Source: Trypanosoma brucei (Eukaryota). From it: a stretch of DNA of 64,000 bases. Under the pieces are notes generated by a model. That model did not search any database and was not told the DNA's origin. It saw only the letters and a list, made by a program, of their open reading frames with translations. Positions 5,253 to 26,898 of the stretch are shown in pieces (within the stretch, counting starts at the first letter, position 1; each line of letters begins with the position of its first letter). Location: contig CP000069.1 in the NCBI GenBank assembly GCA_000002445.1, forward strand, positions 480,001 through 544,000, written 5' to 3'. The position numbers were made by a program, and so were the translations under genes.

Positions 5253-7652
5253 TAAAAAATGCAAACAACGATATTATATGTAAAGATATGCTGCTTGTAG
5301 GAGCAGTTGAGCCAATAGGTATAGACTTGCGATCTTTGCTTCTGTCCTTTCACCTTCTTCCGGCGGATGTGGCACGGTAATTTGTTAACGTGAATAATCC
5401 CGCTAGTAGTGTTTTACGTGACCCCATATAGTTTATTTTTGAATGCTTTAATTAGATAATTTCTTTTTTTTTTTTCAGGGAATCGACTTTGCGTGTCTAA
5501 CTCACGTTCATGGTCATCTGACCTTCCTTGGTTTGGCCGAATTCCATTACTGGACGACGTGATCACCCCACCATTTGGATAAGAGTGTGCATCTCTACCT
5601 TTTCCCTTCCGTGTCGTTTACATTTCCTCTTCATGTTGTTCGTCAGGGCCTCTACTGATGGTTGGAAATAGGGGCAACATGATCGGGCTGCGGCGTAAGG
5701 GAGAGCAAAGAAGCAAGGGAGAGTGCAAACCTTACATTGCCACGGCATATTTTTCTGTACTCGTCCCCGAGTTGTATTTGTATTGTAGAGTGTTGAGATA
5801 TCCTCGGCAGGGGAGACCGGCGGTTGCGGCTCCAGTTTCCCATAAAAACAGCGTAAAAGAAAAAGAGGTGATTGGGACCCATTTCATTGTGATGAGCACA
5901 TCAAACTTTGACGTTTCAGTGGTGGACCGCTGTTGAACCAGTTTGGGGGCAACATTTTGCCTGAGGTTGTCCAAACATGAACGGGCAAAGAATGGCTTCA
6001 CAAGCTCAAGGTTCCTAGTTGTGCCACTTTAACGCCCTGCTTCCTGATTTGAATGTTGTTATGAACCACACGCGGGGTGTTATGCATGGGAGCTCTGACC
6101 ACGAGGTGACAGGGCCGAGCTGCGTGTTCTCGCCGAGGTGCCGCATCCACGGGTGTCAACACACGAAACTAACGTTTGAACAACGGAAAGACGGAGTAGA
6201 CGCTGTAAATGCGGTGAGCACATCAAACAAATACGCTCCCGTTGTGGGACTTATTCCAGCAGTAGGAATAAGCACCAGGATAAAGGTACAATGAAAAGTA
6301 TGGATGATGGGACTCTCCTGGTATCAATGTTGGGTCCAAAGACCATCCAATGCCCAACCAAACACACTGAACAACTTGCACTCACGAAACACGCGCGGCA
6401 ACAAGGACGGACACTAGGAAAGCGACGCAACAATATGAAGATAGAGCGCGAGATTTTTTTTAGTGGATTTACCGCTTTGCTCATTCGTCAAGGTCCTTGG
6501 AGAATAGTGTGAGGTGGAAGGCCTCGTGCAGACATGATTGCCACTTCACAGAAACATGGAAAAATTCATTTGAGAGGTGTTTGTTCTAAAGGATGTAGAA
6601 TCGGAGGCGCTGTCTCCCTTTCCCTTGCCGTGCAGATACCCAAACAACAAGGGGTGAAAGTTCCCGTCGACCGAAGCCACGACACTCAAGATGGCACACC
6701 AAAAGATGGCGAGATGCTGTTTCTGGGAGTGCAAATGGGCATGTCGAACCGCTGCGCCCAGTGCCAAAATAAAACAATCGACTAGGGTTAAAGCGGCGGC
6801 AAATGGAAAATGTAACGCACCGGGCCGTAGGTCACTAACCAACTGAAGTAAAGGCTCGAAGGGGATCCTGCCGCGCCGCGAACTGTCAAAAAAACGGAGA
6901 CCAAAAACATTCCACAAACAGCAGAATCCCGGAAACCTCAATACTATCAGCACGAAGTACCTCGCACTCTCCATATTAAGTCGTGCCCATACCAACCGAG
7001 CCCCAAAGACAACAGCATCGCAGCCGCTACACAAGTTTCCATTTTCAATCTTCCTCCTTCCTCTGACAAATGCGGTCGCCAACGAGACACGTAGCGCCAC
7101 GTTCCACATCATCTCATAGCTTCCTAATTTGCACTATACAAAAGGACAAAAAAAAGAGGAAAGATATTCACACAACAAAGCGCACTCAGTACCCATCCTC
7201 CCTCTAATGTTAGTTTCCCAACCAATATACTGCACATCATATGCGCAGTAAACGTGAGCTAATATATATGGATATCTGGTGACCGCAACTGGCGGTTGCA
7301 ACAATAGCCAATACGGTGCACATAAATTTTATGAGTTCTTACGAACAAAGTTATTCCATCAACAATATGAAACACAAGATGATATATAAACACACAAGAC
7401 AAACAAACCCCATCTCTGCCAAATGCACTTTTACATTTCTGCGGGTGAGCCATTATTGGAGTCCCGTGGCAGTAAACACTATTACAAACATTATTCGGGA
7501 AAGCTTTGAAATAAGATATATAAAATAAGGAAATCAGTAACACAACACATTTGAATGCTTACATTAGTTTATAGAATATTGATGCGTATGATAGCGTTGC
7601 GGCAAACAGTTTACATTGCAATATGCTTTTGAATCGTTCCTTATTATGATAG
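5253..7652. other. Convergent strand-switch region between the plus-strand gene ending at 5252 and the minus-strand polycistronic unit whose most distal gene ends at 7653.
   Basis: Gene orientation flips here and only short or low-confidence ORFs lie between. In trypanosomatids this is where Pol II transcription terminates. Confidence 0.55.
6546..7112 (-). CDS. Hypothetical small membrane protein, 188 aa, with hydrophobic segments. It abuts the left boundary of the tandem array.
   Basis: Double ATG confirmed at 7107-7112. Hydrophobic stretches include FVLIVLRFPGFCCLWNVFGL and LAIFWCAILSVVASV. No recognisable domain. It could be a remnant created at the array edge. Confidence 0.3.
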   Translation of the reverse strand: MMWNVALRVSLATAFVRGRRKIENGNLCSGCDAVVFGARLVWARLNMESARYFVLIVLRFPGFCCLWNVFGLRFFDSSRRGRIPFEPLLQLVSDLRPGALHFPFAAALTLVDCFILALGAAVRHAHLHSQKQHLAIFWCAILSVVASVDGNFHPLLFGYLHGKGKGDSASDSTSFRTNTSQMNFSMFL

Positions 7653-8708
7653 TCAGATAAAACAGAGGGATACTGATAGTAACGTAATTTTGAGTGAGGG
7701 AAATGATGCAATATTCTGTTTTTGTGTTTGTGTGGGTTGAGCATCGGAATCCTTTCGTGCTGCAGTTTGGGGTGCTGTTCTCGAGGGTTGCGCGCCTTCA
7801 GCTCCAGCTCCAGATTCCTTTAATGCTTTTACTTCCTCTTCATTTTTCGCTTTACCGTAAGTTCCCTTTAACTTTTTAACTTTCTCTCTCAACTTTTGAA
7901 GAGCTGCATCTCTTTTATTCATGTGACCCATCGCCTGATTCAACTGCTCAACCCACGGCTTTGAAGCAAGTGGATCAGGTTCCTCCTCAACTCTTGGCGG
8001 TGGGGGAACGCCGTGTGGTGGGAACGGAGGTTGTGGTGGTGCTGGTGGCGGCTGTGGAGATCCGTTGTTTTGGCCATCTGAATACCAATTTCGCAAATCC
8101 TCCAAGTCCTGTTTTATAGCCTTAACAGTAACCTCAACGCTACCAGATCCTACTGTACACCTACCTTTAAGTTCCTTCCATAACTGCAGACGGTCTTCCG
8201 GTGTTTGATGCTCCCTCTGATTTTGAGCAGTTCCCGCAACAAAGCAGCTTTCAGTGGCTCCACTTGCAGAGCTGCAAAGGCATACAATTTCTTTCGGTAT
8301 TGTTGTTGAACGGCTTGTTTCATTGCAGGGTTGGTTTTCCCCACGGGATCCAAAAGTTTTGTCCGCATTCTCGGTTTCGATGTCATCCCCATACGCTGCT
8401 TTCCGAAACGCTGTCCTGGCGCTATTTTCATGACTCTGCACTTCGTCTTCTAACTCTTTAACTTTATCCACCTCTGTTTTCAAAGCCGCTGAATCCCTGG
8501 CACCTTTATTAAACCACTGATAATTACTATCATCTTTTAACTTATCAATGTAATTTTCTTTCGCTCCCTTTTCCGCCTTCGTGAAGAGTCCACACAAAAG
8601 ATCAAATCCCTTCCCGTGCTTCCTGTAGTCTATCACGTTATCGTCTCCAGCCGTTACCAACGTTACCGACACTCCCACAACGACCACTTGTACAATTGCT
8701 TGCCACAT
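7653..8708 (-). CDS. Surface-protein family copy 1, 351 aa. It has a signal peptide, a conserved-Cys helical domain, a Pro-rich hinge, and an invariant C-terminal tail with a GPI-anchor-like signal.
   Basis: ATG confirmed at 8706-8708. N-terminus MWQAIVQVVVVGVSVTLVTAG. Pro tract PQPPPAPPQPPFPPHGVPPPP. C-terminus ...QKQNIASFPSLKITLLSVSLCFI is a hydrophobic tail after small residues. Paralogous to copies 2-5. Confidence 0.8.
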   Translation of the reverse strand: MWQAIVQVVVVGVSVTLVTAGDDNVIDYRKHGKGFDLLCGLFTKAEKGAKENYIDKLKDDSNYQWFNKGARDSAALKTEVDKVKELEDEVQSHENSARTAFRKAAYGDDIETENADKTFGSRGENQPCNETSRSTTIPKEIVCLCSSASGATESCFVAGTAQNQREHQTPEDRLQLWKELKGRCTVGSGSVEVTVKAIKQDLEDLRNWYSDGQNNGSPQPPPAPPQPPFPPHGVPPPPRVEEEPDPLASKPWVEQLNQAMGHMNKRDAALQKLREKVKKLKGTYGKAKNEEEVKALKESGAGAEGAQPSRTAPQTAARKDSDAQPTQTQKQNIASFPSLKITLLSVSLCFI

Positions 8709-10368
8709 TCCTGTGATTCTTCATTATGCACGACAAAGCAAGAAACAAAAAACAGAATTCACATTAAACACAACAGTAATATCAAATAAATGTTGTCTAT
8801 CATGACATGCGCATGTATTATCCCACAGAGCAGTTATTGACTTTCAACCATCGGCGCAAAATGATATATCTTCAAAGGCAGAGCAAACAAACTAACATAA
8901 CATCCAACAGGCCATCTCAACAAGCTCACTATACACGAGGATAGTAAATTCGTCAAATCACTTTACAGATGCCATCGTCGTGATTTCCATTAAACTTTCT
9001 GAATTCCATGTCCCTCTCTCTCTCTCTGAAAGGAATTTGCTTAAAGCATAACATCTAATTCCCCAAAAATGAGTTACACATCCCACATCAAGTCTTTCAC
9101 CCGCCTTACCCTGGTGTATTTCAATCACTCAACTTCTGACAATTCCTATATTCATATTCTTTTCGTTACACTTCCTTAAAATCCTTCCAGACAACCAAGC
9201 ACATCACATTGTTTTATCTTTACATCACTATTAAATGAACAGCAAAAAAAAAATGTACACATCTCCAACACACATGCCGAGTAAACTTCTTGACACCTGA
9301 GGCCGCTCCCACTCCAATCTCGATGGCCTTAACATCAATAACACTCTTGACTAACACTAATATTATTGTGTGATAAAAGAATTGGAAGGATACATTCCCT
9401 AACATGATACCGAAAATTACTGAAACACAAATGTGTAAAGAGTCTAGGAATGGATATACAAAAGGTGGTGTTTAGTAAGAGAAGGGCAATTAACTGCCAC
9501 CCGGAGTGTCTATTTCGTTTAACCTCATCCCGTATATTGTCAACAATACAAAGTCTTATAAAACACACCACCAGTTGTTCTCCAATAAATATACGTTATA
9601 CATGCCAATATCACAAACACTGCAACATCCTCTTTCTTCAACACTTCAAATACGTAACTCATATATCACTTGCTAAAGGTCTTAGTACCATATCCATGCC
9701 TCACTGAAGGGTTTGTGCCGTAACCCAATTAAATGTTGCTTCCTCTCCTCCTTCCATTTCCTCACAATAGGATACGCAGAGCTGCAACTTTGTAATATGT
9801 GCGCAGTTGATGGGGACTTCAGCCGTTATCACTTTAAATTGCAAATGGAAATTCTGAAACAATTCCAATACTCCCTCATGAATACCAACTGTTGCGTGTG
9901 TGTCTCCCATATACCGGCAGTTGCCATTACTGCAATGTTATGCTCAATGAGGATCTTTTTAATATCAAGTGTTAACGGCAACTATTTTATTGTTCATGTC
10001 AGGCTCATATTCATGTAAGTGAAATGGGTGAAACTGTTCTTTTCCTTACTTTGCATTATATAAATAAGAGGAAATAAGGGATGCTTGTTAGAGGCACGCA
10101 ACAGACACATACACATATGAGAGTTTCCATCCAACAATACATACATACCCTTTAAATAGTCCACCAACTGGAGGATGACACCAGCATGTCAGTGAGGGAA
10201 GCAGTATGTCTAGGAATAACATAAAAGACACGCGTGAAGGAATTTACATATTTGTTGCCTTGCTTTGCCTGCTGCGAATACCATATCACCTCCATCAGTA
10301 AAGTTACGGAATTCGGTAAACTTCCATGAATGCACATAAGCAACTGATACACACACACTTTTCCCTTC

Positions 10369-10983
10369 CTATTCCTCTCCTGCACAACTCACATGTTCAC
10401 TTGACGCACTGTCATCCGCTGCAGCAAGTAACTGTTGTCTTCCAGGTGGTTTCTCTCCAGTCAATGCACCACAGAAGCTTACAGTTACTGGCAAAACGGG
10501 TCTGCCCACATCATCAAGAGGAACTGCCTCAAGTTTCTCTAGCAGTGAGAGATCATCAATGGCACGTCCAAACACAACTTGCTTGAAATCAAGAGATGGA
10601 GAAGGACCAAGTGTAATGCCAAATACGGAGCCACTTGTGTGAGGACCCTCAGAGATCATTGTGAGGAGCCCACGTTCCGTGTGTCGGTGACGGTATCCTT
10701 CATCCGCTATTGGTGTGCCAGTGGAGGAGAGGTTAAAGGAATCCAATTCACCCAACACAATGATATTATTGTTGTGATCCACATGATGCACTTGTGTGCC
10801 AAGGTAATCCAATTTCACACCCGTGTTGGTGTCAATCCCACATGACCCAGTGATTAATGCCCTGAAGTTTTCTACGGTTTGTGGCACTACATCGTCAAAG
10901 AGCTCAAATACCAGTCGTCCGCTGAGAACGTCATCAATAGACATATCCAGGAAGGCACGGCAGGAGTTCTGTTCCTCCTTCAT
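10369..10983 (-). CDS. Cyclophilin-like protein, copy 1 (cyclophilin-type PPIase fold, divergent). It is 204 aa from the first ATG; the ORF track extends it to 11034 with an apparent GTG.
   Basis: It aligns to the cyclophilin A core: RLVFELFDDVVPQTVENFRALITG matches [23 protein letters not shown], and FKQVVFGRAIDDLSLLEKLEAV matches [22 protein letters not shown]. Several catalytic positions (Arg55, Gln63, Asn102, Trp121, His126 equivalents) appear substituted. ATG at 10981-10983 checked; the codon at 11032-11034 is cac, i.e. GTG in sense. Confidence 0.7.
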   Translation of the reverse strand: MKEEQNSCRAFLDMSIDDVLSGRLVFELFDDVVPQTVENFRALITGSCGIDTNTGVKLDYLGTQVHHVDHNNNIIVLGELDSFNLSSTGTPIADEGYRHRHTERGLLTMISEGPHTSGSVFGITLGPSPSLDFKQVVFGRAIDDLSLLEKLEAVPLDDVGRPVLPVTVSFCGALTGEKPPGRQQLLAAADDSASSEHVSCAGEE

Positions 10984-11581
10984 GCGATGACTCCGCTGGT
11001 AATTTTCCCATTCCTTTAAGCGGTGCTGTCTCACATAATCTCATAATTTCCTAGTTTGCACTTTACAAAAGGACAAAAAAAAAAGTAAATATATTGACAC
11101 AACGAAGCACACTCCGTACCCATCCTCCCTCTATTGTTAGTTTCCCAACCAATATACTGCACATTATATGCACAGTAAACGTAAGCTAAAATATATAGAT
11201 ATCTGGTAACCGCAACTGGCGGTTGTAACACTAGTCAATACGGTGCACATAAATTTTATACGAGTTCTTACGAACAAAGTTATTCCATCAACAATATGAA
11301 ACACAAAATGATATATAAACACACAAGACAAACAAACCCCATCTCTGCCAAATGCACTTTTACATTTCTACGGGTGAGCCATTATTGGAGTCCCGTGGCA
11401 GTAAACACTATTACAAACATTATTGGGGGAAGCTTTGGAATAGGATATATAAGACAAGGAAATCAGTAACACAACACATTTGAATGCTTACATTAATTTA
11501 TAGAATATTGATGCGTATGATAACGTTGCGGCAAACAGTTTACATTGCAATATGCTTTTGAATCGTATTTCATTATGATAG

Positions 11582-12607
11582 TCAGATAAAACAGAGGGAT
11601 ACTGACAGTAACGTAATTTTGAGTGAGGGGGATGATGCAATATTCTGTTTTTGTGTTTGTGTGGGTTGAGCATCGGAATCCTTTCGTGCTGCAGTTTGGG
11701 GTGCTGTTCTCGAGGGTTGCGCACCTTCAGCTCCAGCTCCAGATTCCTTTAATGCCTTTACTTCCTCTTCATTTTTCGCTTTACCGTAAGTTCCCCTCAA
11801 CTTTTCGACTTGCTCTCTCAACTTTTGAAGAGCCTCATCTCTTCCCTTCATGTGGTCTGTTGCCTCATTCAAGTTCTTAACCCACGGCTTAGAAGTAAAT
11901 ATATCAGGCTCCTCCTCAGGCATTGGTGGACCGCCGGGCGGCGGGGGTGGTGGACCGTCATGTATTGGTTTTTCAGGATACAATCCTCGCAAACCCTCCA
12001 AGTCCTTTCTTATGGCATCAACAGTAACCTCAACTCTATTGATACCCTTTGTACATTTTCCCTTAAGTTCAACCCATGCCTGAAGACCGTCTTCGGCGTT
12101 TCCGTTCTGGCCATACTCTCGGGCTTTCCCGCTCCCAAGGCAGTAGTCGGTGGCCTCACCAACAGAGCTGCAAGTGCAGACAATTTCTTTTGGTAATGCT
12201 GGCCACTCGCTAGCTGGGTTACAGGGCTGGTTGCCCCCATGGGACCCAAACGTTTTGTCCGCATCCTCTTTTTCAATGTTTTCCCCATACGCTGCTTTTT
12301 GAAACGATGACCTGGCGCCATTTTCATGACTCTTTACTTCGTCTTCTAACTCTTTAACTTTATCCACCTCCGCTTTTAAAGCTGGTGAATCCCTGGCATC
12401 TTTATTAAACCACTGATAATCTTCGGTTTCTTTTAACTTATCGAGGTGACTTTTTTCTTTCGCTCCCTTTTCTGCCTTCGTGAAGAGTGAGCACAAGAGA
12501 TCAAATCCCTTTTTGTTTTTTTCATGGTCAACTGCGTTATCGTCTTGAGCTGTTATCCGCGTTACCAACACTCCCACCATGACCACTTTCATAATTACTC
12601 TCCACAT
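11582..12607 (-). CDS. Surface-protein family copy 2, 341 aa.
   Basis: ATG confirmed at 12605-12607. Architecture matches copy 1. Pro tract GPPPPPPGGPPMPEEEPD. The C-terminal ~75 aa are identical to copies 4 and 5. Confidence 0.8.
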   Translation of the reverse strand: MWRVIMKVVMVGVLVTRITAQDDNAVDHEKNKKGFDLLCSLFTKAEKGAKEKSHLDKLKETEDYQWFNKDARDSPALKAEVDKVKELEDEVKSHENGARSSFQKAAYGENIEKEDADKTFGSHGGNQPCNPASEWPALPKEIVCTCSSVGEATDYCLGSGKAREYGQNGNAEDGLQAWVELKGKCTKGINRVEVTVDAIRKDLEGLRGLYPEKPIHDGPPPPPPGGPPMPEEEPDIFTSKPWVKNLNEATDHMKGRDEALQKLREQVEKLRGTYGKAKNEEEVKALKESGAGAEGAQPSRTAPQTAARKDSDAQPTQTQKQNIASSPSLKITLLSVSLCFI

Positions 12608-14251
12608 AGATGTATACCTTTATTATTCGTAATAACAACACAGTAAAAAATAATAGAACATTCATAATAAACACTACAATAATATCAAATCAATGTTGTC
12701 TATCATAACATTGCGTATATTATCCCACAGAGCAAGTGTTAATTTTAAACTCTCGGCAGAAAGTGATATATCTTGCACAGGCAGAGCAAACAGGCTGAAA
12801 TAAAATAGCACCCAACAGGCCATCTCCACAAGTTCACTATACACACAAGAATGATAAATTCACTCAGTTACTCAACAGATGCCAGATATTTGATTTCCCA
12901 TAAACTTTTTTTATTCCTTACTGCTCTAACTCTCTGAAAGGAATTTCCCTCATACAGTAGATTCAGCTGGGTCAAGAAGAGGCACACATCCCACCTCAAC
13001 TTTTTCACCTGCCCAATTTCGGTTTATTTCGGCCAGATACCTTATGATAATTCCCATACTCATATCATTATAGTCACACTTTCTCCATGTCCTCTCAGAC
13101 ACACAAACAAATCATGTTCCTCAATCTTCACATCGCTGTTAAAAACAACAACAGCAAAAAGAAAATACCCACGGTATATTCATTGCTATCTTGTTCCAAA
13201 GCTAGTTCCGTGACCGTAACGTCAGCGACATTCCCTACGAACACAAATATTATCATGTGATAAAAGAATTGGAAGGACACATTTCCTAATATGAAACCGC
13301 AAATCACTGAAACACAAATGTGTAAAGTGTCTAGGAATGGATATACAAAAGGTGGTGTTTAGTGAGGGAAGGATTATTAACTGCCACCCAGTGTGTCTAT
13401 TTCTTTACACCTCATTTCGTATATTGTCAACAATACAAAGTCTTATAAAACATACCATCAGTTGTTCTCCAATAAATATACGTTATACATGCCAATATCA
13501 CAGACACTGCAACATCCTCTTTCTTCAACACTTCAAATACGTAACTCATATACTACTTGCTAAATGTCTTAGTACCATATCCATGCCTCACTGAAGGGTT
13601 TGTGCCGTAACCCAATTAAATGTTGCTTCCTCTCCTCCTTCCATTTCCTCACAATATGATACGCAGAGCTGCAACTTTGTAATATGTGCGCAGTTGATGG
13701 GGACTTCAGTGGTTATCACTTTAAATTGCAAATGGAAATTCTGAAACAGTTCCAATACTCCCTCATGAATACCAACTAGTGTGTGTCTCCCATATACTAG
13801 CAGTTGTCATTACTGCAATGTTATGCTCAATGAGGATCTTTTTATTATCAAGTGTTAGCGCCAACTATTTTATTGTTCATGTCAGGCTCATATTCATGTA
13901 AGTGAAATGGGTGAAACTGTTCTTTTCCTTACTTTGCATTATATAAATAAGAGGAAATAAGGAATGCTTGTTAGAGGCACTCAACAGACACATACACATA
14001 TGAGAGTTTCCATCCAACAATACATACATATCCTTTAAATAGTCCACCAACTGGAGGATGACACCAGCAGGTCAGTGAGGGAAGCAGTATGTCTAGGAAT
14101 AATATAAAAGACACGTGTGACAAAATTTACATATTTGTTGCCTTGCTTTGCCTGCTGCGAATACCATATCACCTCCATCAGTAAAGTTACGGAATTCGGT
14201 AAACTTCCATGAATGCACATAAGCAACTGATACACACACTCTCTTCCCTTT

Positions 14252-14866
14252 CTATTCCTCTCCTGCACAACTCACATGTTCACTTGACGCACTGTCATCC
14301 GCTGCAGCAGGTACCTGTTGTCTTCCAGGTGGTTTCTCTCCAGTCAATGCACCACAGAAGCTTACAGTTACTGGCAAAACGGGTCTGTCCACATCATCAA
14401 GAGGAACTGCCTCAAGTTTCTCTAGCAGTGAGAGATCATCAATGGCACGTCCAAACACAACTTGCTTGAAATCAAGAGATGGAGAAGGACCAAGTGTAAT
14501 GCCAAATACGGAGCCACTTGTGTGAGGACCCTCAGAGATCATTGTGAGAAGCCCACGTTCCGTGTGTCGGTGACGGTATCCTTCATCCGCTATTGGTGTG
14601 CCAGTGGAGGAGAGGTTAAAGGAATCCAATTCACCCAACACAATGATATTATTGTTGTGATCCACATGATGCACTTGTGTGCCAAGGTAATCCAATTTCA
14701 CACCCGTGTTGGTGTCAATCCCACATGACCCAGTGATTAATGCCCTGAAGTTTTCTACGGTTTGTGGCACTACATCGTCAAAGAGCTCAAATACCAGTCG
14801 TCCGCTGAGAACGTCATCGATGGACATGTCCAGGAAGGCACGGCAGGAGTTCTGTTCCTCCTTCAT
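14252..14866 (-). CDS. Cyclophilin-like protein, copy 2, 204 aa.
   Basis: ATG confirmed at 14864-14866 (MKEEQNSC...). It is near-identical to the other copies, with DDVDRP in place of DDVGRP. An upstream in-frame stop comes from a c-to-a change (ttttacc versus ttttccc). Confidence 0.7.
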   Translation of the reverse strand: MKEEQNSCRAFLDMSIDDVLSGRLVFELFDDVVPQTVENFRALITGSCGIDTNTGVKLDYLGTQVHHVDHNNNIIVLGELDSFNLSSTGTPIADEGYRHRHTERGLLTMISEGPHTSGSVFGITLGPSPSLDFKQVVFGRAIDDLSLLEKLEAVPLDDVDRPVLPVTVSFCGALTGEKPPGRQQVPAAADDSASSEHVSCAGEE

Positions 14867-15466
14867 GCGATGACTCCGCTGGTAATTTTACCATTCCTTT
14901 AAGCGGTGCTGTCTCACATTATTTCATAATTTCCTAATTTGCACTCTACAGCAGGACAAAAAAAAAAAAGAGGAAATATATTGACACAGCAAAGCACACT
15001 CAGTACCCATCCTCCCTCTATTGTTAGTCTCCACACCAATATATTGCCCATTATATGCACAGGAAACGTAAGCTAAAATATATATAGATATCCGGTAACC
15101 GCAACTGGCGGTTGCAACAGTAGCCAACACGGTACACATAAATGTTTTAAGTTCTTACGAACAAAGTTATTCCATCAATAATATGAAACACAAAATGGCA
15201 TAAACACACAAGACAAACAAACCCCATCTCTGCCAAATGCACTTTTACATTTCTGTGGGTGAGCCATTATTGGAGTCCCGTGGCAGTAAACACTATTACA
15301 AACATTATTCGGAGAAGCTTTGAAATAAGATATATAAGACAAGGAAATCAGTAACACAACACATTTGAATGCTTACATTAGTTTATAGAATATTGATGCG
15401 TATGATAGCGTTGCGGCAAACAGTTTACATTGCAATATGCTTTTGAATCGTTCCTTATTATGATAG

Positions 15467-16504
15467 TCAGATAAAACAGAGGGATACTGATAGTAACGTA
15501 ATTTTGAGTGAGGGAAATGATGCAATATTCTGTTTTTGTGTTTGTGTTTGTGTGGGTTGAGGATCGGAATCCTTTCGTGCTGCAGTTTGGGGTGCTGTTC
15601 TCGAGGGTTGCACACCTTCAGCTCCAGCTCCAGATTCCTTTAATGCCTTTACTTCCTCTTCATTTTTCGCTCTACCGTAAGTTCCCTTCAGCCTTTTAAC
15701 TTTCTCCTTCAAGTTTTCCAGCGCTGCATCTCTCTTATTCATATGGCTCATCGCCTCATCTAACCGCTTAACCCATGGCTTAGAAGCAAGAGGATCAGGC
15801 CTTTCAGGTATTTGTAGTGGTGAACTGTCTGGTGGTGGTGGTGATGGTGGTGGTGGGGGTGGTGGGGGTGGTGGGGAATCAACTTCCTGGTCTTCTGAAT
15901 ACAATCCTCGCAAATTCTCCAAGTCTTTTCTTATGGCTTCAATAGTAACCTCAACTCTTTCGCTATCCTTTGTACACCTGCTCTTAACTCCATACCATGC
16001 CTGTAGACCGTCTTCCGCTGTCCCGCTTTGGTCATGGCCATAACTTCGAGCCTTCCCGCTCCCAAGGCAGTAGTCGGTGGCCTCGCCAACAGAGCTGCAA
16101 ATGCAGACAATTTCTTTTGGTATTGTTGGCCACTCACTAGCTGGGTTACAGGGCTGGTTGCCCCCATGGGATCCAAAAGTTTTGTCCGCATCCTCTTTTT
16201 CAATGTTTTCCCCATACGCTGCTTTCCGAAACGCTGTCCTGGCATTATTTTCATGACTCTGCACTTCGCTTTCTAACTCTTTCACCTTTTCCGTCTCCGT
16301 TTTCAGAGTCGATGAATCTCTAGCATGTTTCAACTTACCGATGTAGTTTTCTCCTTTTGCTCCCTCTGCCGCCTTCGTGAAGAGCGAGCACAAAATATCA
16401 AACATCTTCTCGTTTTTGCCATGGTTCCTCCAGCTGTCCTCGCCGACAGTAACCTGCGATACCAACACTCCCACCATGACCACTTGCATAAATGATCGCC
16501 ACAT
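15467..16504 (-). CDS. Surface-protein family copy 3, 345 aa, the most divergent N-terminal and central region.
   Basis: N-terminus MWRSFMQVVMVGVLVSQVTVG. Longest Pro tract, SPPPPPPPPPPSPPPPDSSP, encoded by a (GGT/GGG)n run on the plus strand at ~15830-15880. Shares the invariant C-terminal tail. Confidence 0.8.
   Translation of the reverse strand: MWRSFMQVVMVGVLVSQVTVGEDSWRNHGKNEKMFDILCSLFTKAAEGAKGENYIGKLKHARDSSTLKTETEKVKELESEVQSHENNARTAFRKAAYGENIEKEDADKTFGSHGGNQPCNPASEWPTIPKEIVCICSSVGEATDYCLGSGKARSYGHDQSGTAEDGLQAWYGVKSRCTKDSERVEVTIEAIRKDLENLRGLYSEDQEVDSPPPPPPPPPPSPPPPDSSPLQIPERPDPLASKPWVKRLDEAMSHMNKRDAALENLKEKVKRLKGTYGRAKNEEEVKALKESGAGAEGVQPSRTAPQTAARKDSDPQPTQTQTQKQNIASFPSLKITLLSVSLCFI
15828..15880. 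repeat. (GGT/GGG)n trinucleotide-like tract encoding the poly-Pro hinge of surface-protein copy 3
   Basis: ggtggtggtggtgatggtggtggtgggggtggtgggggtggtgggg on the plus strand encodes PPPPPPPPPPSPPPP on the minus strand. Shorter, different-length equivalents lie in the other four copies at ~8000-8050, 11930-11960, 19680-19720 and 23560-23600. Confidence 0.85.
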
Positions 16505-18097
16505 TGTTGTCTTTCTTCACTGTAAACAACAGCACAGAGAAAAACAGCATTCATATTAAACACTACCGTAAAATCAAATAAATGCTGTCTACCTTAAAAC
16601 ATGCACATGTATTATCCCACAGATCAAATATTAATTTTCAACCATCGGCATAAAAAGATATGCCTTTCGTAGGCAGAGCAAACAAACTAACATAACATCC
16701 AACAAGCCACCTCAACAAGCTCACTATACACGAGGATAGTAAATTCGTCAAATCACTATACAGATGCCATCGTCGTCATTTCCCTCATACAGTAGATTCA
16801 GCTGGGTCAAAAAGAGACACACATCCCACATCAAGTCTTTCACCTGCCTTATCCTGGTGTATTTCAATCACTCAACCTCTGACAATTGCTATATTCATAT
16901 TCTTTTGGTTACACTTTCTTAATATCCTCTCAGATACACGAGCACATCACATTGCTTATCTTTACATGGCAATCCAAAATAACAACAGAACCAAAATGCA
17001 CACAGTAAACTTCTTGACACCTGAGGCCGCTCCCACTCCAATCTCGAGGGCCTTAACATCAGAGACACTCTTGACTAACACTAATACTATTGTGTGATAA
17101 AAGAATTGGAAGGATACATTTCCTAACATGACACCGAAAATTACTGAAACACAAATGTGTAAAGTGTCTATGGATGGAAATGCAAAATATGTGGTGTTTA
17201 GTAAGGGAAGGATTATTAACTGCCACCCGGAGTGTATATTTCGTTTAACCTCACTCTGCATATTCTGAACAATACCAAATCTTATAAAACACACCACCAG
17301 TTGTTCTCCAATAAATATACGTTATACATGCCAATATCACAAACACTGCAACATCCTCTTTCTTCAACACTTCAAATACGTAACTCATATATCACTTGCT
17401 AAAGGTCTTAGTACCATATCCATGCCTCACTGAAGGGTTCGTGCCCCTACCCAATTAAATGTTGCTTCCTCTCCTCCTTCCATTTCCTCACAATATGATA
17501 CGCAGAGCTGCAACTTTGTAATATGTGCGCAGTTGATGGGGACTTCAGCCGTTATCACTTTAAATTGCAAATGGAAATTCTGAAACAATTCCAATACTCC
17601 CTCATGAATACCAACTGTTGCGTGTGTGTCTCCCATATACCGGCAGTTGCCATTACTGCAATGTTATGCTCAATGAGGATCTTTTTAATATCAAGTGTTA
17701 ACGGCAACTATTTTATTGTTCATGTCAGGCTCATATTCATGTAAGTGAAATGGGTGAAACTGTTCTTTTCCTTACTTTGCATTATATAAATAAGAGGAAA
17801 TAAGGGATGCTTGTTAGAGGCACGCAACAGACACATACACATATGAGAGTTTCCATCCAACAATACATACATACCCTTTAAATAGTCCACCAACTGGAGG
17901 ATGACACCAGCATGTCAGTGAGGGAAGCAGTATGTCTAGGAATAACATAAAAGACACGCGTGAAGGAATTTACATATTTGTTGCCTTGCTTTGCCTGCTG
18001 CTACGAATACCATATCACCTCCATCAGTAAAGTTACGGAATTCGGTAAACTTCCATGAATGCACATAAGCAACTGATACACACACACTTTTCCCTTC

Positions 18098-18712
18098 CTA
18101 TTCCTCTCCTGCACAACTCACATGTTCACTTGACGCACTGTCATCCGCTGCAGCAAGTAACTGTTGTCTTCCAGGTGGTTTCTCTCCAGTCAATGCACCA
18201 CAGAAGCTTACAGTTACTGGCAAAACGGGTCTGCCCACATCATCAAGAGGAACTGCCTCAAGTTTCTCTAGCAGTGAGAGATCATCAATGGCACGTCCAA
18301 ACACAACTTGCTTGAAATCAAGAGATGGAGAAGGACCAAGTGTAATGCCAAATACGGAGCCACTTGTGTGAGGACCCTCAGAGATCATTGTGAGGAGCCC
18401 ACGTTCCGTGTGTCGGTGACGGTATCCTTCATCCGCTATTGGTGTGCCAGTGGAGGAGAGGTTAAAGGAATCCAATTCACCCAACACAATGATATTATTG
18501 TTGTGATCCACATGATGCACTTGTGTGCCAAGGTAATCCAATTTCACACCCGTGTTGGTGTCAATCCCACATGACCCAGTGATTAATGCCCTGAAGTTTT
18601 CTACGGTTTGTGGCACTACATCGTCAAAGAGCTCAAATACCAGTCGTCCGCTGAGAACGTCATCAATAGACATATCCAGGAAGGCACGGCAGGAGTTCTG
18701 TTCCTCCTTCAT
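18098..18712 (-). CDS. Cyclophilin-like protein, copy 3, 204 aa from the first ATG. The ORF track extends it to 18763.
   Basis: The translated protein is identical to copy 1. Confidence 0.7.
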   Translation of the reverse strand: MKEEQNSCRAFLDMSIDDVLSGRLVFELFDDVVPQTVENFRALITGSCGIDTNTGVKLDYLGTQVHHVDHNNNIIVLGELDSFNLSSTGTPIADEGYRHRHTERGLLTMISEGPHTSGSVFGITLGPSPSLDFKQVVFGRAIDDLSLLEKLEAVPLDDVGRPVLPVTVSFCGALTGEKPPGRQQLLAAADDSASSEHVSCAGEE

Positions 18713-19316
18713 GCGATGACTCCGCTGGTAATTTTCCCATTCCTTTAAGCGGTGCTGTCTCACATTATTTCATAATTTCCTAATTTGCACTCTACAGCAG
18801 GACAAAAAAAAAAAAGAGGAAATATATTGACACAGCAAAGCACACTCAGTACCCATCCTCCCTCTATTGTTAGTCTCCACACCAATATATTGCCCATTAT
18901 ATGCACAGGAAACGTAAGCTAAAATATATATAGATATCCGGTAACCGCAACTGGCGGTTGTAACACTAGTCAATACGGTGCACATAAATTTTATACGAGT
19001 TCTTACGAACAAAGTTATTCCATCAACAATATGAAACACAAAATGATATATAAACACACAAGACAAACAAACCCCATCTCTGCCAAATGCACTTTTACAT
19101 TTCTACGGGTGAGCCATTATTGGAGTCCCGTGGCAGTAAACACTATTACAAACATTATTGGGGGAAGCTTTGGAATAGGATATATAAGACAAGGAAATCA
19201 GTAACACAACACATTTGAATGCTTACATTAATTTATAGAATATTGATGCGTATGATAACGTTGCGGCAAACAGTTTACATTGCAATATGCTTTTGAATCG
19301 TTCCTTATTATGATAG

Positions 19317-20360
19317 TCAGATAAAACAGAGGGATACTGATAGTAACGTAATTTTGAGTGAGGGGGATGATGCAATATTCTGTTTTTGTGTTTGTGTGGG
19401 TTGAGCATCGGAATCCTTTCGTGCTGCAGTTTGGGGTGCTGTTCTCGAGGGTTGCGCACCTTCAGCTCCAGCTCCAGATTCCTTTAATGCCTTTACTTCC
19501 TCTTCATTTTTCGCTTTACCGTAAGTTCCCCTCAACTTTTCGACTTGCTCTCTCAACTTTTGAAGAGCCTCATCTCTTCCCTTCATGTGGTCTGTTGCCT
19601 CATTCAAGTTCTTAACCCACGGCTTAGAAGTAAATATATCAGGCTCCTCCTCAGGCATTGGTGGACTGCCAGGTGGGAACGGAGGTGGCGGTGGTGGCGG
19701 TGGAGGTTCTTGGCCTTTTGAGTCGTCTGAATACAAACCCCTCAAACCCTCCAAGTCCTTTTCTATAGCTTCGACAGTAACCTCGGCACTGCTGCTGGCA
19801 CTCGTACATTTTCCCTTAACTCCATTCCATGCCTGTAGACGCTGTTCAGCCGTGGTATCGTCGTGATTTCGGGCATTCTCGCTCCCACCGAAGCAGCTTT
19901 CAGTGGCACCTTGTGTGGGGCTGCAACTACAGATGATACTGTTAGGTATCGTTGACCATCGGTTTGTTTCGTCGCATGGATTGCCTACTGTATGGTGTCC
20001 AAAAGTTTTGTCCGCGTCCTCTTCTTCAATGTTATCCCCATAGGCTGCTTTCCGAAACGCTGTCTTGGCGCCACTTTCATGGCTCTGCACTTTGTTTTCT
20101 AACTCTTTAACTTTATCCACCTCCGCTTTTAAAGCTGGTGAATCCCTGGCATCTTTATTAAACCACTGATAATCTTCGGTTTCTTTTAGCTTATCGAGGT
20201 GACTTTTTTCTTTCGCTCCCTTTTCTGCCTTCGTGAAGAGTGAGCACAAGAGATCAAATCCCTTCTTGTCTTTCTCGTGGTCAATCCAGTCATTCTTTCC
20301 CATTGCAACTCCCGTTACCAACACTCCCACCATGACCACTTTCATAATTACTCTCCACAT
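19317..20360 (-). CDS. Surface-protein family copy 4, 347 aa.
   Basis: N-terminus MWRVIMKVVMVGVLVTGVAMGKNDW. Pro tract EPPPPPPPPPFPPGSPPMPEEEPD. It differs from copy 5 at only ~6 residues. Confidence 0.8.
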   Translation of the reverse strand: MWRVIMKVVMVGVLVTGVAMGKNDWIDHEKDKKGFDLLCSLFTKAEKGAKEKSHLDKLKETEDYQWFNKDARDSPALKAEVDKVKELENKVQSHESGAKTAFRKAAYGDNIEEEDADKTFGHHTVGNPCDETNRWSTIPNSIICSCSPTQGATESCFGGSENARNHDDTTAEQRLQAWNGVKGKCTSASSSAEVTVEAIEKDLEGLRGLYSDDSKGQEPPPPPPPPPFPPGSPPMPEEEPDIFTSKPWVKNLNEATDHMKGRDEALQKLREQVEKLRGTYGKAKNEEEVKALKESGAGAEGAQPSRTAPQTAARKDSDAQPTQTQKQNIASSPSLKITLLSVSLCFI

Positions 20361-21987
20361 AGATGTATACCTTTATTATTCGTAATAACAACACAGTAAA
20401 AAATAATAGAACATTAATATTAAACACTACAGTAATATCAAATCAATGTTGTCTATCATAACATTGCGTATATTATCCCACAGAGCAGTTATTACTGTTT
20501 AACTCTCAGCAGAAAGTGATATGCCATTCATAGGCAGAGCATGCAAACTAACATAACATCCAACAAGCCATCTCCACAAGCTCACTATACACGAGGATAG
20601 TAAATTCACGAAGTCACTTTACAGATGCCATCGTCGTGATTTCCCTCAATCTTTTTTTATTCCTTACTGCTCTAACTCTCTGAAAGGAATTTCCCTCATA
20701 CAGTAGATTCAGCTGGGTCAAAAAGAGGCACACATCCCACATCAAGTCTTTCACCTGCCTTATCCTGGTGTATTTCAACCACACACCTTCTAGGAATATT
20801 CATATATAATTATAGTCACACTTTCTCCATGTCCTCTCAGACACAAGAACAAATCATGATCCTCTACTTTTACATCACTATTAAATGAACAGCAAAAAGA
20901 AAATACACACAATATATTCATTGATATATGGTTCCCACTGCTGGTTCCGTGACCGTAATGTCAGTGACACATTTTACGAACACAAATACTATGATAAAAG
21001 AATTGGAAGGACACATTTCCTAACATGACACCGAAAATTACTGAAACACAAATGTGTAAAGTGTCTATGGATGGAAATGCAAAATATGTGGTGTTTAGTA
21101 AGGGAAGGATTATTAGCTGCCACCCGGAGTGTATATTTCTTTACACCTCATTTCGTATCTTGTCAACAATACAAAGTCTTATAAAACACACCACCAGTTG
21201 TTCTCCAATAAATATACGTTATACATGCCAATATCACAGACACTGCAACATCCTCTTTCTTCAACACTTCAAATACGTAACTCATATATCACTTGCTAAA
21301 GGTCTTAGTACCATATCCATGCCTCACTGAAGGGTTTGTGCCGTAACCCAATTAAATGTTGCTTCCTCTCCTCCTTCCATTTCCTCACAATATGATACGC
21401 AGAGCTGCAACTTTGTAATATGTGCGCAGTTGATGGGGACTTCAGTGGTTATCACTTTAAATTGCAAATGGAAATTCTGAAACAGTTCCAATACTCCCTC
21501 ATGAATACCAACTAGTGTGTGTCTCCCATATACTAGCAGTTGTCATTACTGCAATGTTATGCTCAATGAGGATCTTTTTATTATCAAGTGTTAGCGCCAA
21601 CTATTTTATTGTTCATGTCAGGCTCATATTCATGTAAGTGAAATGGGTGAAACTGTTCTTTTCCTTACTTTGCATTATATAAATAAGAGGAAATAAGGAA
21701 TGCTTGTTAGAGGCACTCAACAGACACATACACATATGAGAGTTTCCATCCAACAATACATACATATCCTTTAAATAGTCCACCAACTGGAGGATGACAC
21801 CAGCAGGTCAGTGAGGGAAGCAGTATGTCTAGGAATAATATAAAAGACACGTGTGACAAAATTTACATATTTGTTGCCTTGCTTTGCCTGCTGCGAATAC
21901 CATATCACCTCCATCAGTAAAGTTACGGAATTCGGTAAACTTCCATGAATGCACATAAGCAACTGATACACACACACTTTTCCCTTC

Positions 21988-22602
21988 CTATTCCTCTCCT
22001 GCACAACTCACATGTTCACTTGACGCACTGTCATCCGCTGCAGCAAGTAACTGTTGTCTTCCAGGTGGTTTCTCTCCAGTCAATGCACCACAGAAGCTTA
22101 CAGTTACTGGCAAAACGGGTCTGCCCACATCATCAAGAGGAACTGCCTCAAGTTTCTCTAGCAGTGAGAGATCATCAATGGCACGTCCAAACACAACTTG
22201 CTTGAAATCAAGAGATGGAGAAGGACCAAGTGTAATGCCAAATACGGAGCCACTTGTGTGAGGACCCTCAGAGATCATTGTGAGGAGCCCACGTTCCGTG
22301 TGTCGGTGACGGTATCCTTCATCCGCTATTGGTGTGCCAGTGGAGGAGAGGTTAAAGGAATCCAATTCACCCAACACAATGATATTATTGTTGTGATCCA
22401 CATGATGCACTTGTGTGCCAAGGTAATCCAATTTCACACCCGTGTTGGTGTCAATCCCACATGACCCAGTGATTAATGCCCTGAAGTTTTCTACGGTTTG
22501 TGGCACTACATCGTCAAAGAGCTCAAATACCAGTCGTCCGCTGAGAACGTCATCAATAGACATATCCAGGAAGGCACGGCAGGAGTTCTGTTCCTCCTTC
22601 AT
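21988..22602 (-). CDS. Cyclophilin-like protein, copy 4, 204 aa from the first ATG. The ORF track extends it to 22653.
   Basis: Identical to copies 1 and 3. Confidence 0.7.
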   Translation of the reverse strand: MKEEQNSCRAFLDMSIDDVLSGRLVFELFDDVVPQTVENFRALITGSCGIDTNTGVKLDYLGTQVHHVDHNNNIIVLGELDSFNLSSTGTPIADEGYRHRHTERGLLTMISEGPHTSGSVFGITLGPSPSLDFKQVVFGRAIDDLSLLEKLEAVPLDDVGRPVLPVTVSFCGALTGEKPPGRQQLLAAADDSASSEHVSCAGEE

Positions 22603-26656: not shown

Positions 26657-26898
26657 CAAAACAATCACTAGGCCTATTCCGCGCTGAAGCAAGATGTCGA
26701 ATAAGTGAATGCTATCTCAATCCTCTGAAGTTTTAAAATGAAAGCCGAAGAAAGAGGAGAAATAAAGGATGGAAGAGTGAGGGATGCTGGGCGTATTGGT
26801 AGTGTAACCATAAACACTATAGGTGATGTGAAAACAATGATTCCCTGAAGCCTCTTGGGTGGGGGTAAGGGAAGATAAAGGAGGAGAAAGAAGATCAG

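What the first reader, a model, noticed from the sequence alone, without database searches (positions are those of the whole stretch)
10983..11040. Array junction lies inside the 5' coding region of the cyclophilin-like gene; internal copies are N-terminally truncated and the track start codons are non-ATG
Only the most upstream copy (25874-26656/26692) has the unique N-terminal extension MSTTKLEGVRHSRRKKGDS...DDVEE. The internal copies match it from ...RLKEWENYQRSHRMKEEQ onward. Just upstream of that point, each internal copy joins onto sequence homologous to the 3' end of the next unit. By my reading the ORF-track 221-aa start at 11034, 18763 and 22653 is the codon cac on the plus strand, which is GTG in sense. 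The first real ATG (MKEEQNSC) gives 204 aa; copy 2 (14866) starts exactly there because of an upstream stop. So the duplication breakpoints cut the ancestral gene's 5' end and the internal copies rely on an internal ATG. The track also labels TTG as M at 26692, 31486, 35959 and 44598, and GTG as M at 42968 and 60415.
Basis: seen in the sequence. Interest (0 to 1): 0.5.

Follow-up and report, generated by a model that had tools for sequence, protein, structure and literature searches.

The report
Truncated cyclophilin copies at duplication junctions

Summary
The window is T. brucei brucei TREU927 chromosome 6 (480001-544000). It holds the published 3.9-kb, two-gene, five-copy segmental duplication Tb927.6.1310-1400, made of the VSG-like Fam1 gene plus a cyclophilin-type gene.

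The upstream-most cyclophilin copy is full length (260 aa). The four internal copies share one junction, at ATGTG 11036-11032 and its equivalents.
- Downstream of it they match the full-length gene from codon 39/40 onward.
- Upstream of it they match the intergenic region, splice-acceptor tract and start codon of the array's downstream flanking gene, Tb927.6.1300.
- The two parental sites share 8 nt of microhomology.

GenBank already annotates the internal copies as 204 aa starting at MKEEQ. Published ribosome-profiling supplements place the major spliced-leader site upstream of the junction and list the uORFs I derived independently.

Orthologues in all trypanosomatids are single-copy and carry the lost N-terminal helix motif (DVEERRLKEWENYQRSHR), so the internal copies are truncated derivatives.

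The GTG/TTG "starts" come from the bacterial translation table of the ORF track. First-ATG versions match deposited proteins.

What is new here is small: the microhomology, the captured leader, and a cluster of substitutions at the junction. Low interest.

The parts
10984..11040 (-). The flagged interval (with the A of the ATG at 10983). It is the open in-frame stretch between the stop TGA (11043-11041) and the first ATG of internal cyclophilin copy 1. Positions 11031-10984 are former CYP9 codons 41-56, now 5' UTR. Positions 11036-11032 are the junction core, ATGTG.
11032..11036 (-). Junction J1 (ATGTG), shared with both parental sequences. GTG 11034-11032 is the artefactual 'start' of the 221-aa ORF.
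14915..14919 (-). Junction J2, the same sequence in internal copy 2 (Tb927.6.1340).
18761..18765 (-). Junction J3 in internal copy 3 (Tb927.6.1360).
22651..22655 (-). Junction J4 in internal copy 4 (Tb927.6.1380).
26537..26541 (-). Parental site P1, inside the full-length gene: GAC GAT GTG GAG GAG, codons D38-E42. The microhomology GATGTGGA is shared with P2.
7105..7109 (-). Parental site P2, at the ATGATGTGG start of Tb927.6.1300. T. b. gambiense reads ATAATGTGGAG at this position.
10369..10983 (-). Internal cyclophilin-like CDS, 204 aa from Met57 (Tb927.6.1320). It contains the complete Pro_isomerase domain, residues 11-172. An exact GenBank match is deposited.
14252..14866 (-). Internal copy 2 (Tb927.6.1340), 204 aa. 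An in-frame TAA at 14890-14888 lies in the former coding leader.
18098..18712 (-). Internal copy 3 (Tb927.6.1360), 204 aa.
21988..22602 (-). Internal copy 4 (Tb927.6.1380), 204 aa.
25874..26656 (-). Full-length CYP9-type gene (Tb927.6.1400), 260 aa. Its 5' UTR is 26657-26724, after the AG at 26726-26725, and has no uATG.
11061..11085 (-). Polypyrimidine tract (11085-11067) and first downstream AG (11062-11061) of internal copy 1. It is homologous to the tract and AG upstream of Tb927.6.1300 (7164-7140 and 7135-7134). The predicted 5' UTR is 11060-10984.
   Evidence: In copy 2 the same rule gives 14945, which equals the published gene-model 5' end.
10934..11044 (-). A 111-nt out-of-frame uORF that starts in the captured leader and overlaps the Met57 ATG. 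It is listed as Tb927.6.1320 uORF 1 in Jensen 2014. Further uATGs lie at 11036 (ATG TGA) and 11011.
6546..7112 (-). Tb927.6.1300, a 188-aa hypothetical protein and the last ORF of the transcription unit. Its 5' region was copied onto each internal cyclophilin copy.
7653..24246 (-). The span holding the five Fam1 (VSG_B-like, GPI-anchored) genes at 7653-8708, 11582-12607, 15467-16504, 19317-20360 and 23203-24246. They alternate with the cyclophilin copies and are the likely selected cargo of the duplication.

Best explanation
The junction is the scar of a tandem segmental duplication in T. brucei TREU927 chromosome 6.

The single-copy arrangement is seen in T. b. gambiense: 229-aa gene, CYP9 (260 aa), Fam1, Tb927.6.1300 region. 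In that arrangement, an unequal exchange or replication template switch joined two sites. One is the start-codon region of Tb927.6.1300 (..GAGATGATGTGGA..). The other is codon 39/40 of CYP9 (..GACGATGTGGAGG..). They share 8 nt of microhomology. The resulting 3.9-kb unit was then amplified to four internal copies.

Each internal cyclophilin copy is therefore a chimera.
- Its polypyrimidine tract, AG trans-splice acceptor and the first ~25 nt of its 5' UTR come from Tb927.6.1300.
- CYP9 codons 40-56 follow as untranslated leader.
- The first in-frame AUG is Met57, which gives 204 aa.

That product keeps the whole cyclophilin-like domain. It lacks the pan-trypanosomatid N-terminal helix (DVEERRLKEWENYQRSHR).

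Inferred: the duplicated splice signal also serves to polyadenylate the upstream Fam1 mRNA, because trans-splicing and upstream polyadenylation are coupled in trypanosomatids. On that view Fam1 is the selected cargo and the truncated cyclophilin genes are by-products. They are expressed, burdened with uORFs, and kept nearly identical to the full-length copy by gene conversion.

The GTG/TTG 'starts' are artefacts of a bacterial-code ORF finder applied to a eukaryote.

Shown: anatomy, parentage of both sides, ancestral state, annotation, SL-site position, transcription.
Inferred: mechanism of formation, poly(A) coupling, passenger status, and actual use of Met57.
For: Source identity and deposited 260-aa and 204-aa proteins.

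Three-way alignment of internal copies, full-length copy and downstream flank. Microhomology strings.

Single-unit locus in T. b. gambiense. Published statements that the duplication is absent from T. b. gambiense and T. evansi, and that it is a 3865-bp, 2-gene, 5-copy unit: (PMC4288722, PMC2854126).

Conserved, single-copy, full-length orthologues with conserved upstream synteny. The AlphaFold2 model puts residues 24-54 in a helix, with pLDDT 87-95 for residues 31-50.

Domain intact in the 204-aa form.

The first-AG-after-polyY rule gives 14945 and 26724, which are exactly the gene-model 5' ends in the Vasquez 2014 supplement. Jensen 2014 lists uORFs between the major SL site and the ATG at the coordinates I derived, with mRNA and footprint counts above the floor in strain 927.

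Copy 2 has a stop in the former coding leader, and E41, E42 and R43 are replaced in all internal copies. Both are consistent with that stretch no longer being translated.

Patchy sharing of SNPs among copies and with T. b. gambiense indicates gene conversion.
Against: No data here show which codon ribosomes initiate at. The translational efficiencies in Vasquez 2014 are 2.08 in bloodstream form (BF) and 2.18 in procyclic form (PF) for Tb927.6.1340, against 3.98 and 2.22 for Tb927.6.1400. They come from bowtie2 default mapping, so near-identical copies share reads.

Among the 11 variable sites in the shared 204 codons, 7 are synonymous and 4 non-synonymous (binomial p = 0.008 against 75% non-synonymous). 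All four ORFs are intact. This could mean the truncated proteins are under selection rather than passengers, although conversion from the constrained full-length copy would give the same pattern.

The junction no longer shows the full microhomology. It reads ATGTGAGACAG where ATGTGGAGGAG would be expected, so the exact crossover point and mechanism are reconstructed, not observed.

Fam1 N-terminal regions are only 72-86% identical between units. That sits awkwardly with a very recent duplication.
Confidence: 0.8

Rival explanations
1. The truncated copies are a selected, functional isoform: a 204-aa cyclophilin-like protein without the N-terminal helix. It would provide extra dosage or a new function or localisation. 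The T. brucei-specific Met57 would be what makes this possible.
For: All four ORFs are intact and contain the complete domain. Synonymous changes outnumber non-synonymous ones, 7 to 4. Ribosome footprints and above-average translational efficiency are reported for Tb927.6.1340. Met at this column is unique to T. brucei among 56 homologues.
Against: The lost segment is the most conserved part of the protein outside the domain. Three uATGs precede the Met57 codon. One (GGAATGG) opens an ORF that overlaps Met57, which itself sits in a weak CGCATGA context. Intactness and the synonymous excess can both be imported by gene conversion from the full-length copy. The duplication is absent from T. b. 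gambiense and T. evansi, so it is dispensable. Read assignment among copies is ambiguous. Sixteen homologues have Met at the adjacent column, so Met57 is not remarkable.
Confidence: 0.25
2. Internal copies start translation at the GTG (11034 and equivalents) and give a 221-aa protein that keeps RLKEWENYQRSHR.
For: The frame is open from 11040 in copies 1, 3 and 4. Vasquez 2014 reports some non-AUG initiation in 5' UTRs of procyclic forms.
Against: The organism is a eukaryote, and the GTG call comes from table 11. Copy 2 has an in-frame TAA between the GTG and the ATG. The 221-aa sequence is not deposited. Residues E41, E42 and R43 of the conserved motif are already replaced. Out-of-frame AUGs lie before and after the GTG.
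Confidence: 0.04
3. The short form is ancestral, and the upstream-most copy gained its extension by reading into upstream sequence.
For: None beyond the bare fact that four of the five copies are short.
Against: The extension is present and conserved in 55 homologues across Trypanosomatida. The single-copy loci in T. b. gambiense, T. vivax and T. cruzi are full length. The sequence upstream of the internal copies is demonstrably Tb927.6.1300 leader.
Confidence: 0.01
4. The repeated junction is an assembly artefact of a collapsed or expanded repeat.
For: Tandem arrays are hard to assemble. Jackson 2010 warns that assembled copy number can be arbitrary. T. equiperdum contigs break at both edges of the array.
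Against: The four junction copies differ by SNPs and indels in their flanks: two haplotype classes, 1/4 and 2/3, plus the unique stop in copy 2. The Fam1 genes between them differ. Junction-specific leader sequence has RNA and footprint reads in strain 927.
Confidence: 0.03

Closest known systems
The published T. b. brucei-specific segmental duplication Tb927.6.1310-1390 (Tbg972.6.1030 locus; Jackson et al. 2010, PMC2854126; Fam1 in Jackson et al. 2013, PMC3605285; Carnes et al. 2015, PMC4288722)
   Same: It is this locus. The papers describe a 3865-bp unit with two genes (cyclophilin-type PPIase plus a GPI-anchored hypothetical protein), five copies in TREU927 and a single copy in T. b. gambiense and T. 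evansi. The PPIase copies are near-identical and Fam1 is divergent. I measured the same.
   Different: Those papers count '0 unique isoforms' for the PPIase. In the text I could read, they do not describe the truncation, the breakpoints, the microhomology or the captured Tb927.6.1300 leader.
Trypanosomatid CYP9-type cyclophilin-like proteins (named 'cyclophilin 9' in Leishmania, Leptomonas, Lotmaria and Novymonas records)
   Same: The full-length copy, Tb927.6.1400, is the syntenic orthologue. It shares the N-terminal helix motif and the cyclophilin-like domain.
   Different: The four internal copies lack residues 1-56, including the invariant RR..EW motif, and have a foreign 5' UTR.
Chimeric or partial genes created at tandem-duplication breakpoints in other eukaryotes (general knowledge, for example Drosophila tandem duplicates)
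   Same: A breakpoint inside a coding region gives a 5'-truncated paralogue fused to a neighbour's upstream sequence. There is short microhomology at the join.
   Different: In a trypanosome no promoter is captured, because transcription is polycistronic. What is captured is an RNA-processing signal (polypyrimidine tract and AG), which by established coupling also positions the poly(A) site of the upstream gene.
PPIL6, the 'probable inactive peptidyl-prolyl isomerase-like 6' of axonemal structures (PDB 9fqr, 8j07)
   Same: It is the best PDB sequence match to the domain (E = 4e-28). Like PPIL6, this protein looks catalytically degenerate.
   Different: The margin over ordinary cyclophilins is negligible in both sequence and fold searches. 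The N-terminal regions are unrelated in length. No orthology or axonemal location was shown.

Membership tests
Cyclophilin-type PPIase / cyclophilin-like domain (Pfam PF00160) | Match to the Pro_isomerase profile above the gathering score, over the whole profile | tested here: met
   The 260-aa form scores 87.1 bits and the 204-aa form 88.9 bits, against a cut-off of 21.7, over profile positions 1-158 of 159. The fold search gives TM about 0.9 to cyclophilin structures.
Cyclophilin-type PPIase / cyclophilin-like domain (Pfam PF00160) | Catalytic and cyclosporin-binding residues of active cyclophilins (human CypA R55, F60, Q63, N102, F113, W121, H126) | tested here: not met
   BLASTP against human CypA (sequence from memory). 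The residues are H, N, V, S, G, S and Q at those positions; L122 is kept. It is therefore a cyclophilin-like domain, probably inactive as an isomerase. Activity was not assayed.
Trypanosomatid CYP9 orthologue group | Conserved N-terminal helix motif D-[IV]-E-E-R-R-L-K-E-W-E-N-Y-Q-[RK]-S-H-R preceding the domain | tested here: met
   Met for the full-length copy 25874-26656. Not met for the products of the four internal copies: they start at Met57, and the motif's first residues are mutated in the leader.
Trypanosomatid CYP9 orthologue group | Conserved synteny: immediately downstream of the 229-aa gene and the MATH-domain gene | tested here: met
   Searches show the same order in T. b. gambiense, T. 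vivax and T. cruzi. Only the full-length copy occupies this position.
Tandem segmental duplication with a chimeric boundary gene | Head-to-tail units sharing one identical novel junction whose two sides are separate, single-copy sequences in an unduplicated haplotype | tested here: met
   There are four junctions, and both parental sites are present once each in T. b. gambiense and at the array edges in TREU927.
Tandem segmental duplication with a chimeric boundary gene | Short microhomology between the parental sites at the breakpoint | tested here: met
   GATGTGGA is shared in TREU927, and ATGTGGAG with the T. b. gambiense flank. The present junction retains only ATGTG, followed by clustered substitutions.
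Tandem segmental duplication with a chimeric boundary gene | Copy-number polymorphism between strains | not testable with these tools
   Taken from the literature. One indirect hint here: floor-level counts for the junction-specific uORF in strain 427 libraries.
Genes with genuine non-ATG (GTG/TTG) initiation | The organism uses GTG/TTG initiators, and the annotated or observed N-terminus starts there | tested here: not met
   The source is a eukaryote, T. brucei. First-ATG versions match deposited proteins of 260, 204, 769, 436 and 353 aa. The tested GTG/TTG versions (221, 775 and 1582 aa) are not in the collection. Copy 2 has a stop after the GTG.
Trans-spliced kinetoplastid mRNA with a mapped 5' end | Polypyrimidine tract followed by an AG acceptor upstream of the CDS, with a mapped SL addition site | tested here: met
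   Sequence. Published coordinates: the gene-model 5' ends 494945 and 506724 lie right after the first AG. Jensen 2014 uORFs lie between the major SL site and the ATG for all four internal copies. I read the supplement tables, not the raw reads.

The most novel reading that the evidence does not exclude
The strain-specific array produces a real second isoform of an otherwise invariant, single-copy trypanosomatid protein. This would be a cyclophilin-like domain stripped of its conserved N-terminal docking helix, translated through leaky scanning past captured uORFs, and able to act as a free or dominant-negative form of CYP9. Separately, the dense cluster of 7 substitutions in the 23 nt next to the breakpoint would be the footprint of an error-prone, microhomology-mediated repair or template-switch event, rather than later drift at the edge of a gene-conversion tract.
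Probability: 0.15. Interest if true: 0.4.

Novelty: already known. Interest (0 to 1): 0.18.

Why it matters
It matters little beyond this locus. For annotation, it confirms that the 204-aa and 260-aa gene models are right and that the GTG/TTG starts should be ignored in this eukaryotic window.

For trypanosome biology it is a clean, fully resolved example of how a segmental duplication in a polycistronic genome makes a chimeric gene. There is no promoter to capture. The new copy inherits a neighbour's trans-splice signal, which also supplies 3'-end formation for the amplified surface-protein gene.

It also flags a caution for expression studies. Reads and peptides assigned to 'Tb927.6.1400' or to the internal copies are largely interchangeable. 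The truncated copies lack the most conserved non-domain segment of CYP9.

Tried and rejected
1. Exact look-up of the 204-aa protein in the assembly index found no gene call on record. I therefore could not survey other strains for the junction.

2. SL-trapping (Nilsson 2010) and RNA-seq (Kolev 2010) supplements held as text contain no rows for the cyclophilin copies. They give only Fam1 'up' entries and the polycistron table. No Siegel 2010 supplements are held.

3. The PPIL6/RSP12 radial-spoke lead. The PDB sequence search ranks PPIL6 first by a negligible margin. The Foldseek search does not separate it from ordinary cyclophilins, and nothing matches the N-terminal helix. The trypanosomatid radial-spoke paper does not mention a cyclophilin. 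I dropped it as unsupported.

4. Full-text search for the gene identifiers found no paper that discusses the cyclophilin copies themselves.

5. I considered that the 25 nt after ATGTG might be filler or derived from the Tb927.6.1300 side. By eye, the strings match the CYP9 parent much better (18 of 25) than the flank, so I rejected this.

6. I considered dN/dS as a test of function. With 11 variable sites and evident gene conversion it cannot discriminate.
Full report
**Source and context.** Exact-sequence look-ups identify the window as Trypanosoma brucei brucei TREU927 chromosome 6.
- The ORF at 6546-7112 is Tb927.6.1300.
- The five ~345-aa ORFs are the 'hypothetical protein, conserved' series XP_845253/55/57/59/61. 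These have a VSG_B domain and are called Fam1 in Jackson 2013.
- The cyclophilin-type ORFs are XP_845254/56/58/60 (204 aa) and XP_845262 (260 aa).

Coordinates in a published supplement give Tb927.6.1400 as 505874-506724 and Tb927.6.1340 as 494252-494945. These fix the window as Tb927_06_v4:480001-544000. All genes from about 6500 upward lie on the minus strand. They form one polycistronic unit that ends at Tb927.6.1300 (Kolev 2010 table; GC-skew change).

**Checking the observation.**
- The ORF listing reports GTG at 11034, 18763 and 22653 (221 aa) and ATG at 14866 (204 aa). It reports TTG at 26692, 31486, 35959 and 44598, and GTG at 42968 and 60415. The plus-strand triplets are CAC and CAA.
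- In copy 1 the frame is open from 11040, after a TGA at 11043-11041. The first ATG is at 10983.
- Copy 2 differs by one G>T change that creates an in-frame TAA at 14890-14888. This is why its ORF begins at the ATG.
- Only the upstream-most copy encodes MSTTKLEG...DDVEE.

**Anatomy of the junction.** I aligned the four internal copies, the full-length copy and the sequence downstream of the last Fam1 gene, and then added T. b. gambiense and T. equiperdum. The result is a clean three-way relationship.
- Downstream of the pentamer ATGTG, the internal copies match the full-length gene. The pentamer is at 11036-11032 in copy 1, with equivalents at 14919, 18765 and 22655.
- Upstream of it, they match the region between the last Fam1 gene and Tb927.6.1300. 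This includes that gene's polypyrimidine tract, its AG, its 9-nt uORF ATGAGATGA and its ATGATGTGG start.

The parental sites read GACGATGTGGAGGAG (CYP9 codons 38-42, 26541-26537) and GAGATGATGTGGAACG (7109-7105). They share GATGTGGA. With the T. b. gambiense flank (ATAATGTGGAGCG) the shared string is ATGTGGAG.

At DNA level, therefore, the duplication removed codons 1-39. Codons 40-56 survive as leader, and the first AUG in frame is Met57.

Next to the breakpoint the internal copies carry 7 substitutions in 23 nt, all shared by the four copies. The following 638 nt carry 8 (Fisher p = 9e-7). These substitutions replace the invariant E41, E42 and R43.

**Which state is ancestral.** A homology search returned 57 relatives from across Trypanosomatida. 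The named ones run from T. vivax to Leishmania 'cyclophilin 9'. All have an N-terminal extension, and positions 39-56 are nearly invariant. R43, R44, E47 and W48 are identical in 56 of 56 sequences.

An AlphaFold2 model built on that alignment places residues 24-54 in one long helix, with pLDDT 87-95 for residues 31-50.

The gene is single-copy and full length, directly downstream of the same 229-aa gene, in T. b. gambiense, T. vivax and T. cruzi. Synteny ends right after it. T. vivax has an HpHbR-like gene where T. brucei has Fam1.

T. b. gambiense shows the one-unit arrangement: 229 aa, CYP9 (260 aa), Fam1 (353 aa), then a convergent gene.

**RNA processing and translation.** I applied a simple rule: take the first AG after the longest upstream pyrimidine tract.
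- It gives 5' UTR starts at 11060, 14945, 18791 and 22679 for the internal copies.
- It gives 26724 for the full-length copy.
- Two of these, 14945 and 26724, are exactly the 5' ends of the gene models used by Vasquez 2014.

[quoted passage not shown] Its table lists:
- Tb927.6.1320: 491044-490934
- Tb927.6.1340: 494927-494919 and 494894-494814
- Tb927.6.1360: 498773-498765 and 498740-498663
- Tb927.6.1380: 502663-502553
- Tb927.6.1300: 487117-487109

These are the same uATGs I derived from the sequence. The major SL site of every internal copy therefore lies upstream of the junction, in Tb927.6.1300-derived sequence.

The table also gives mRNA and footprint counts above the apparent floor values for the junction-specific 9-nt uORF in strain 927 procyclic and slender bloodstream libraries. 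The internal copies are thus transcribed and their leaders are ribosome-associated.

The internal leaders carry three uATGs. One, in the context GGAATGG, opens a 25-26-codon ORF that overlaps Met57 out of frame. In copies 1 and 4 the first uATG opens a 36-codon overlapping ORF. Met57 itself sits in CGCATGA. The full-length copy's 68-nt leader has no uATG.

Reported translational efficiencies, for bloodstream form (BF) and procyclic form (PF), are 3.98 and 2.22 for Tb927.6.1400 and 2.08 and 2.18 for Tb927.6.1340. Reads were mapped with default bowtie2, so the near-identical copies cannot be separated.

**Function of the truncated copies.** The 204-aa product keeps the complete Pro_isomerase domain but loses the conserved helix.

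The domain looks catalytically degenerate.

Among the 11 variable sites in the shared 204 codons, 7 are synonymous. However, variants are shared patchily among copies and with T. b. gambiense. This is the signature of gene conversion, which would import a purified pattern from the full-length copy.

Across the unit, the cyclophilin gene and its 3' flank are 97-99.7% identical between copies. The Fam1 upstream region and N-terminal half are 72-86% identical.

My reading is that Fam1 is the selected cargo. The unit had to include the downstream pyrimidine tract and AG, because trans-splicing at that signal positions the poly(A) site of the upstream mRNA. That coupling is established knowledge for trypanosomatids and was not tested here. 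On this reading the truncated cyclophilin genes are expressed by-products. A selected ΔN isoform remains possible (about 0.25).

**The non-ATG starts.** The ORF tool uses bacterial table 11. First-ATG versions of the flagged ORFs are exact matches to deposited T. brucei proteins of 260, 204, 769, 436 and 353 aa. The GTG/TTG-extended versions I tested (221, 775 and 1582 aa) are absent from the collection. Two first-ATG versions, of 451 and 1574 aa, had no exact match. The annotated start or sequence there may differ.

**What is already known.**
- Jackson 2010 lists this locus (Tbg972.6.1030) as a T. b. brucei-specific segmental duplication: 3865 bp, two genes, five copies. The PPIase distance is 0.0068 with '0 unique isoforms'. 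The hypothetical protein's distance is 0.1564 with 4 isoforms.
- Jackson 2013 describes Fam1 as a five-copy array at a strand-switch region, with one copy in T. b. gambiense.
- Carnes 2015 reports the duplication Tb927.6.1310-.1390 absent from T. evansi STIB805.
- The 204-aa and 260-aa gene models date from the genome deposition. The leaders and uORFs are tabulated in 2014 supplements.

I found no text that describes the truncation itself, the breakpoint microhomology, the Tb927.6.1300 origin of the leader, or the substitution cluster. These are small additions to a known feature.

**Verdict.** The feature is real, ordinary in kind and already in the public record, so interest is low.

Noticed in passing
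window 11900-13475 and equivalents, against 13475-14866: Divergence within the repeat unit is strongly mosaic. The cyclophilin gene and its 3' flank are 97-99.7% identical between units. The Fam1 upstream intergenic region and N-terminal half are only 72-86% identical. That much divergence is hard to reconcile with a duplication reported as absent from T. b. gambiense and T. evansi. Either the array is old and collapsed in those lineages, or Fam1 segments were replaced by conversion from other VSG-like donors.
   Followed up: partly
window 14919-14927 and 18765-18773 (junction-specific 9-nt uORF): In the Jensen 2014 uORF read-count table, this junction-specific element has mRNA and footprint counts well above the apparent floor in strain 927 libraries. 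In the strain 427 cultured bloodstream libraries it has only floor values (1/8/3 and 5/5/5). The CYP9-derived uORF does have counts in those libraries. This suggests that Lister 427 lacks the internal copies.
   Followed up: no
window 25874-26656 (and all internal copies): The cyclophilin-like domain has lost most catalytic and cyclosporin-binding residues. Its best PDB sequence match is PPIL6, the 'probable inactive' cyclophilin in axoneme structures 9fqr and 8j07. This may hint at a structural, flagellar role for CYP9. The fold search did not separate it from ordinary cyclophilins.
   Followed up: partly
L008 9706-10977 (T. vivax), against window 23203-24246: Conserved synteny (cyclin, MATH-domain gene, 229-aa gene, CYP9) ends immediately after CYP9. 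T. vivax has an HpHbR-family gene there, T. brucei has the VSG-like Fam1, and T. cruzi has unrelated genes and then a trans-sialidase. The position looks like a hotspot for lineage-specific surface-protein genes.
   Followed up: no
window 6546-7112: Tb927.6.1300 (188 aa) has no Pfam match. It is recorded only in Trypanozoon. It is not called as a gene in T. b. gambiense although the ORF is open there. Its uORF has floor-level read counts. It may not be a real protein-coding gene, yet its splice signal is what the internal cyclophilin copies use.
   Followed up: partly
L002 (ends 727 bp after the 229-aa gene) and L007 (starts 454 bp before the Tb927.6.1300 orthologue): T. equiperdum contigs stop at both edges of the array. 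This is what an unresolved multi-copy repeat would produce, so T. equiperdum may carry the duplication.
   Followed up: no
window 34514-35869 and 38220-42944: The first-ATG translations of these two ORFs (451 aa and 1574 aa) have no exact match among deposited proteins, unlike the other three tested. The T. b. gambiense locus does have a 451-aa cyclin gene call. The TREU927 models may use another start or differ in sequence.
   Followed up: no
window 1-6500: GC skew changes sign near 6000. The ORF at 4320-5252 is on the plus strand, and I take it to be the lone plus-strand gene Tb06.3A7.960 in Kolev's polycistron table. The array therefore sits at the very end of its transcription unit, next to a convergent strand switch, as Jackson 2013 states.
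   Followed up: partly
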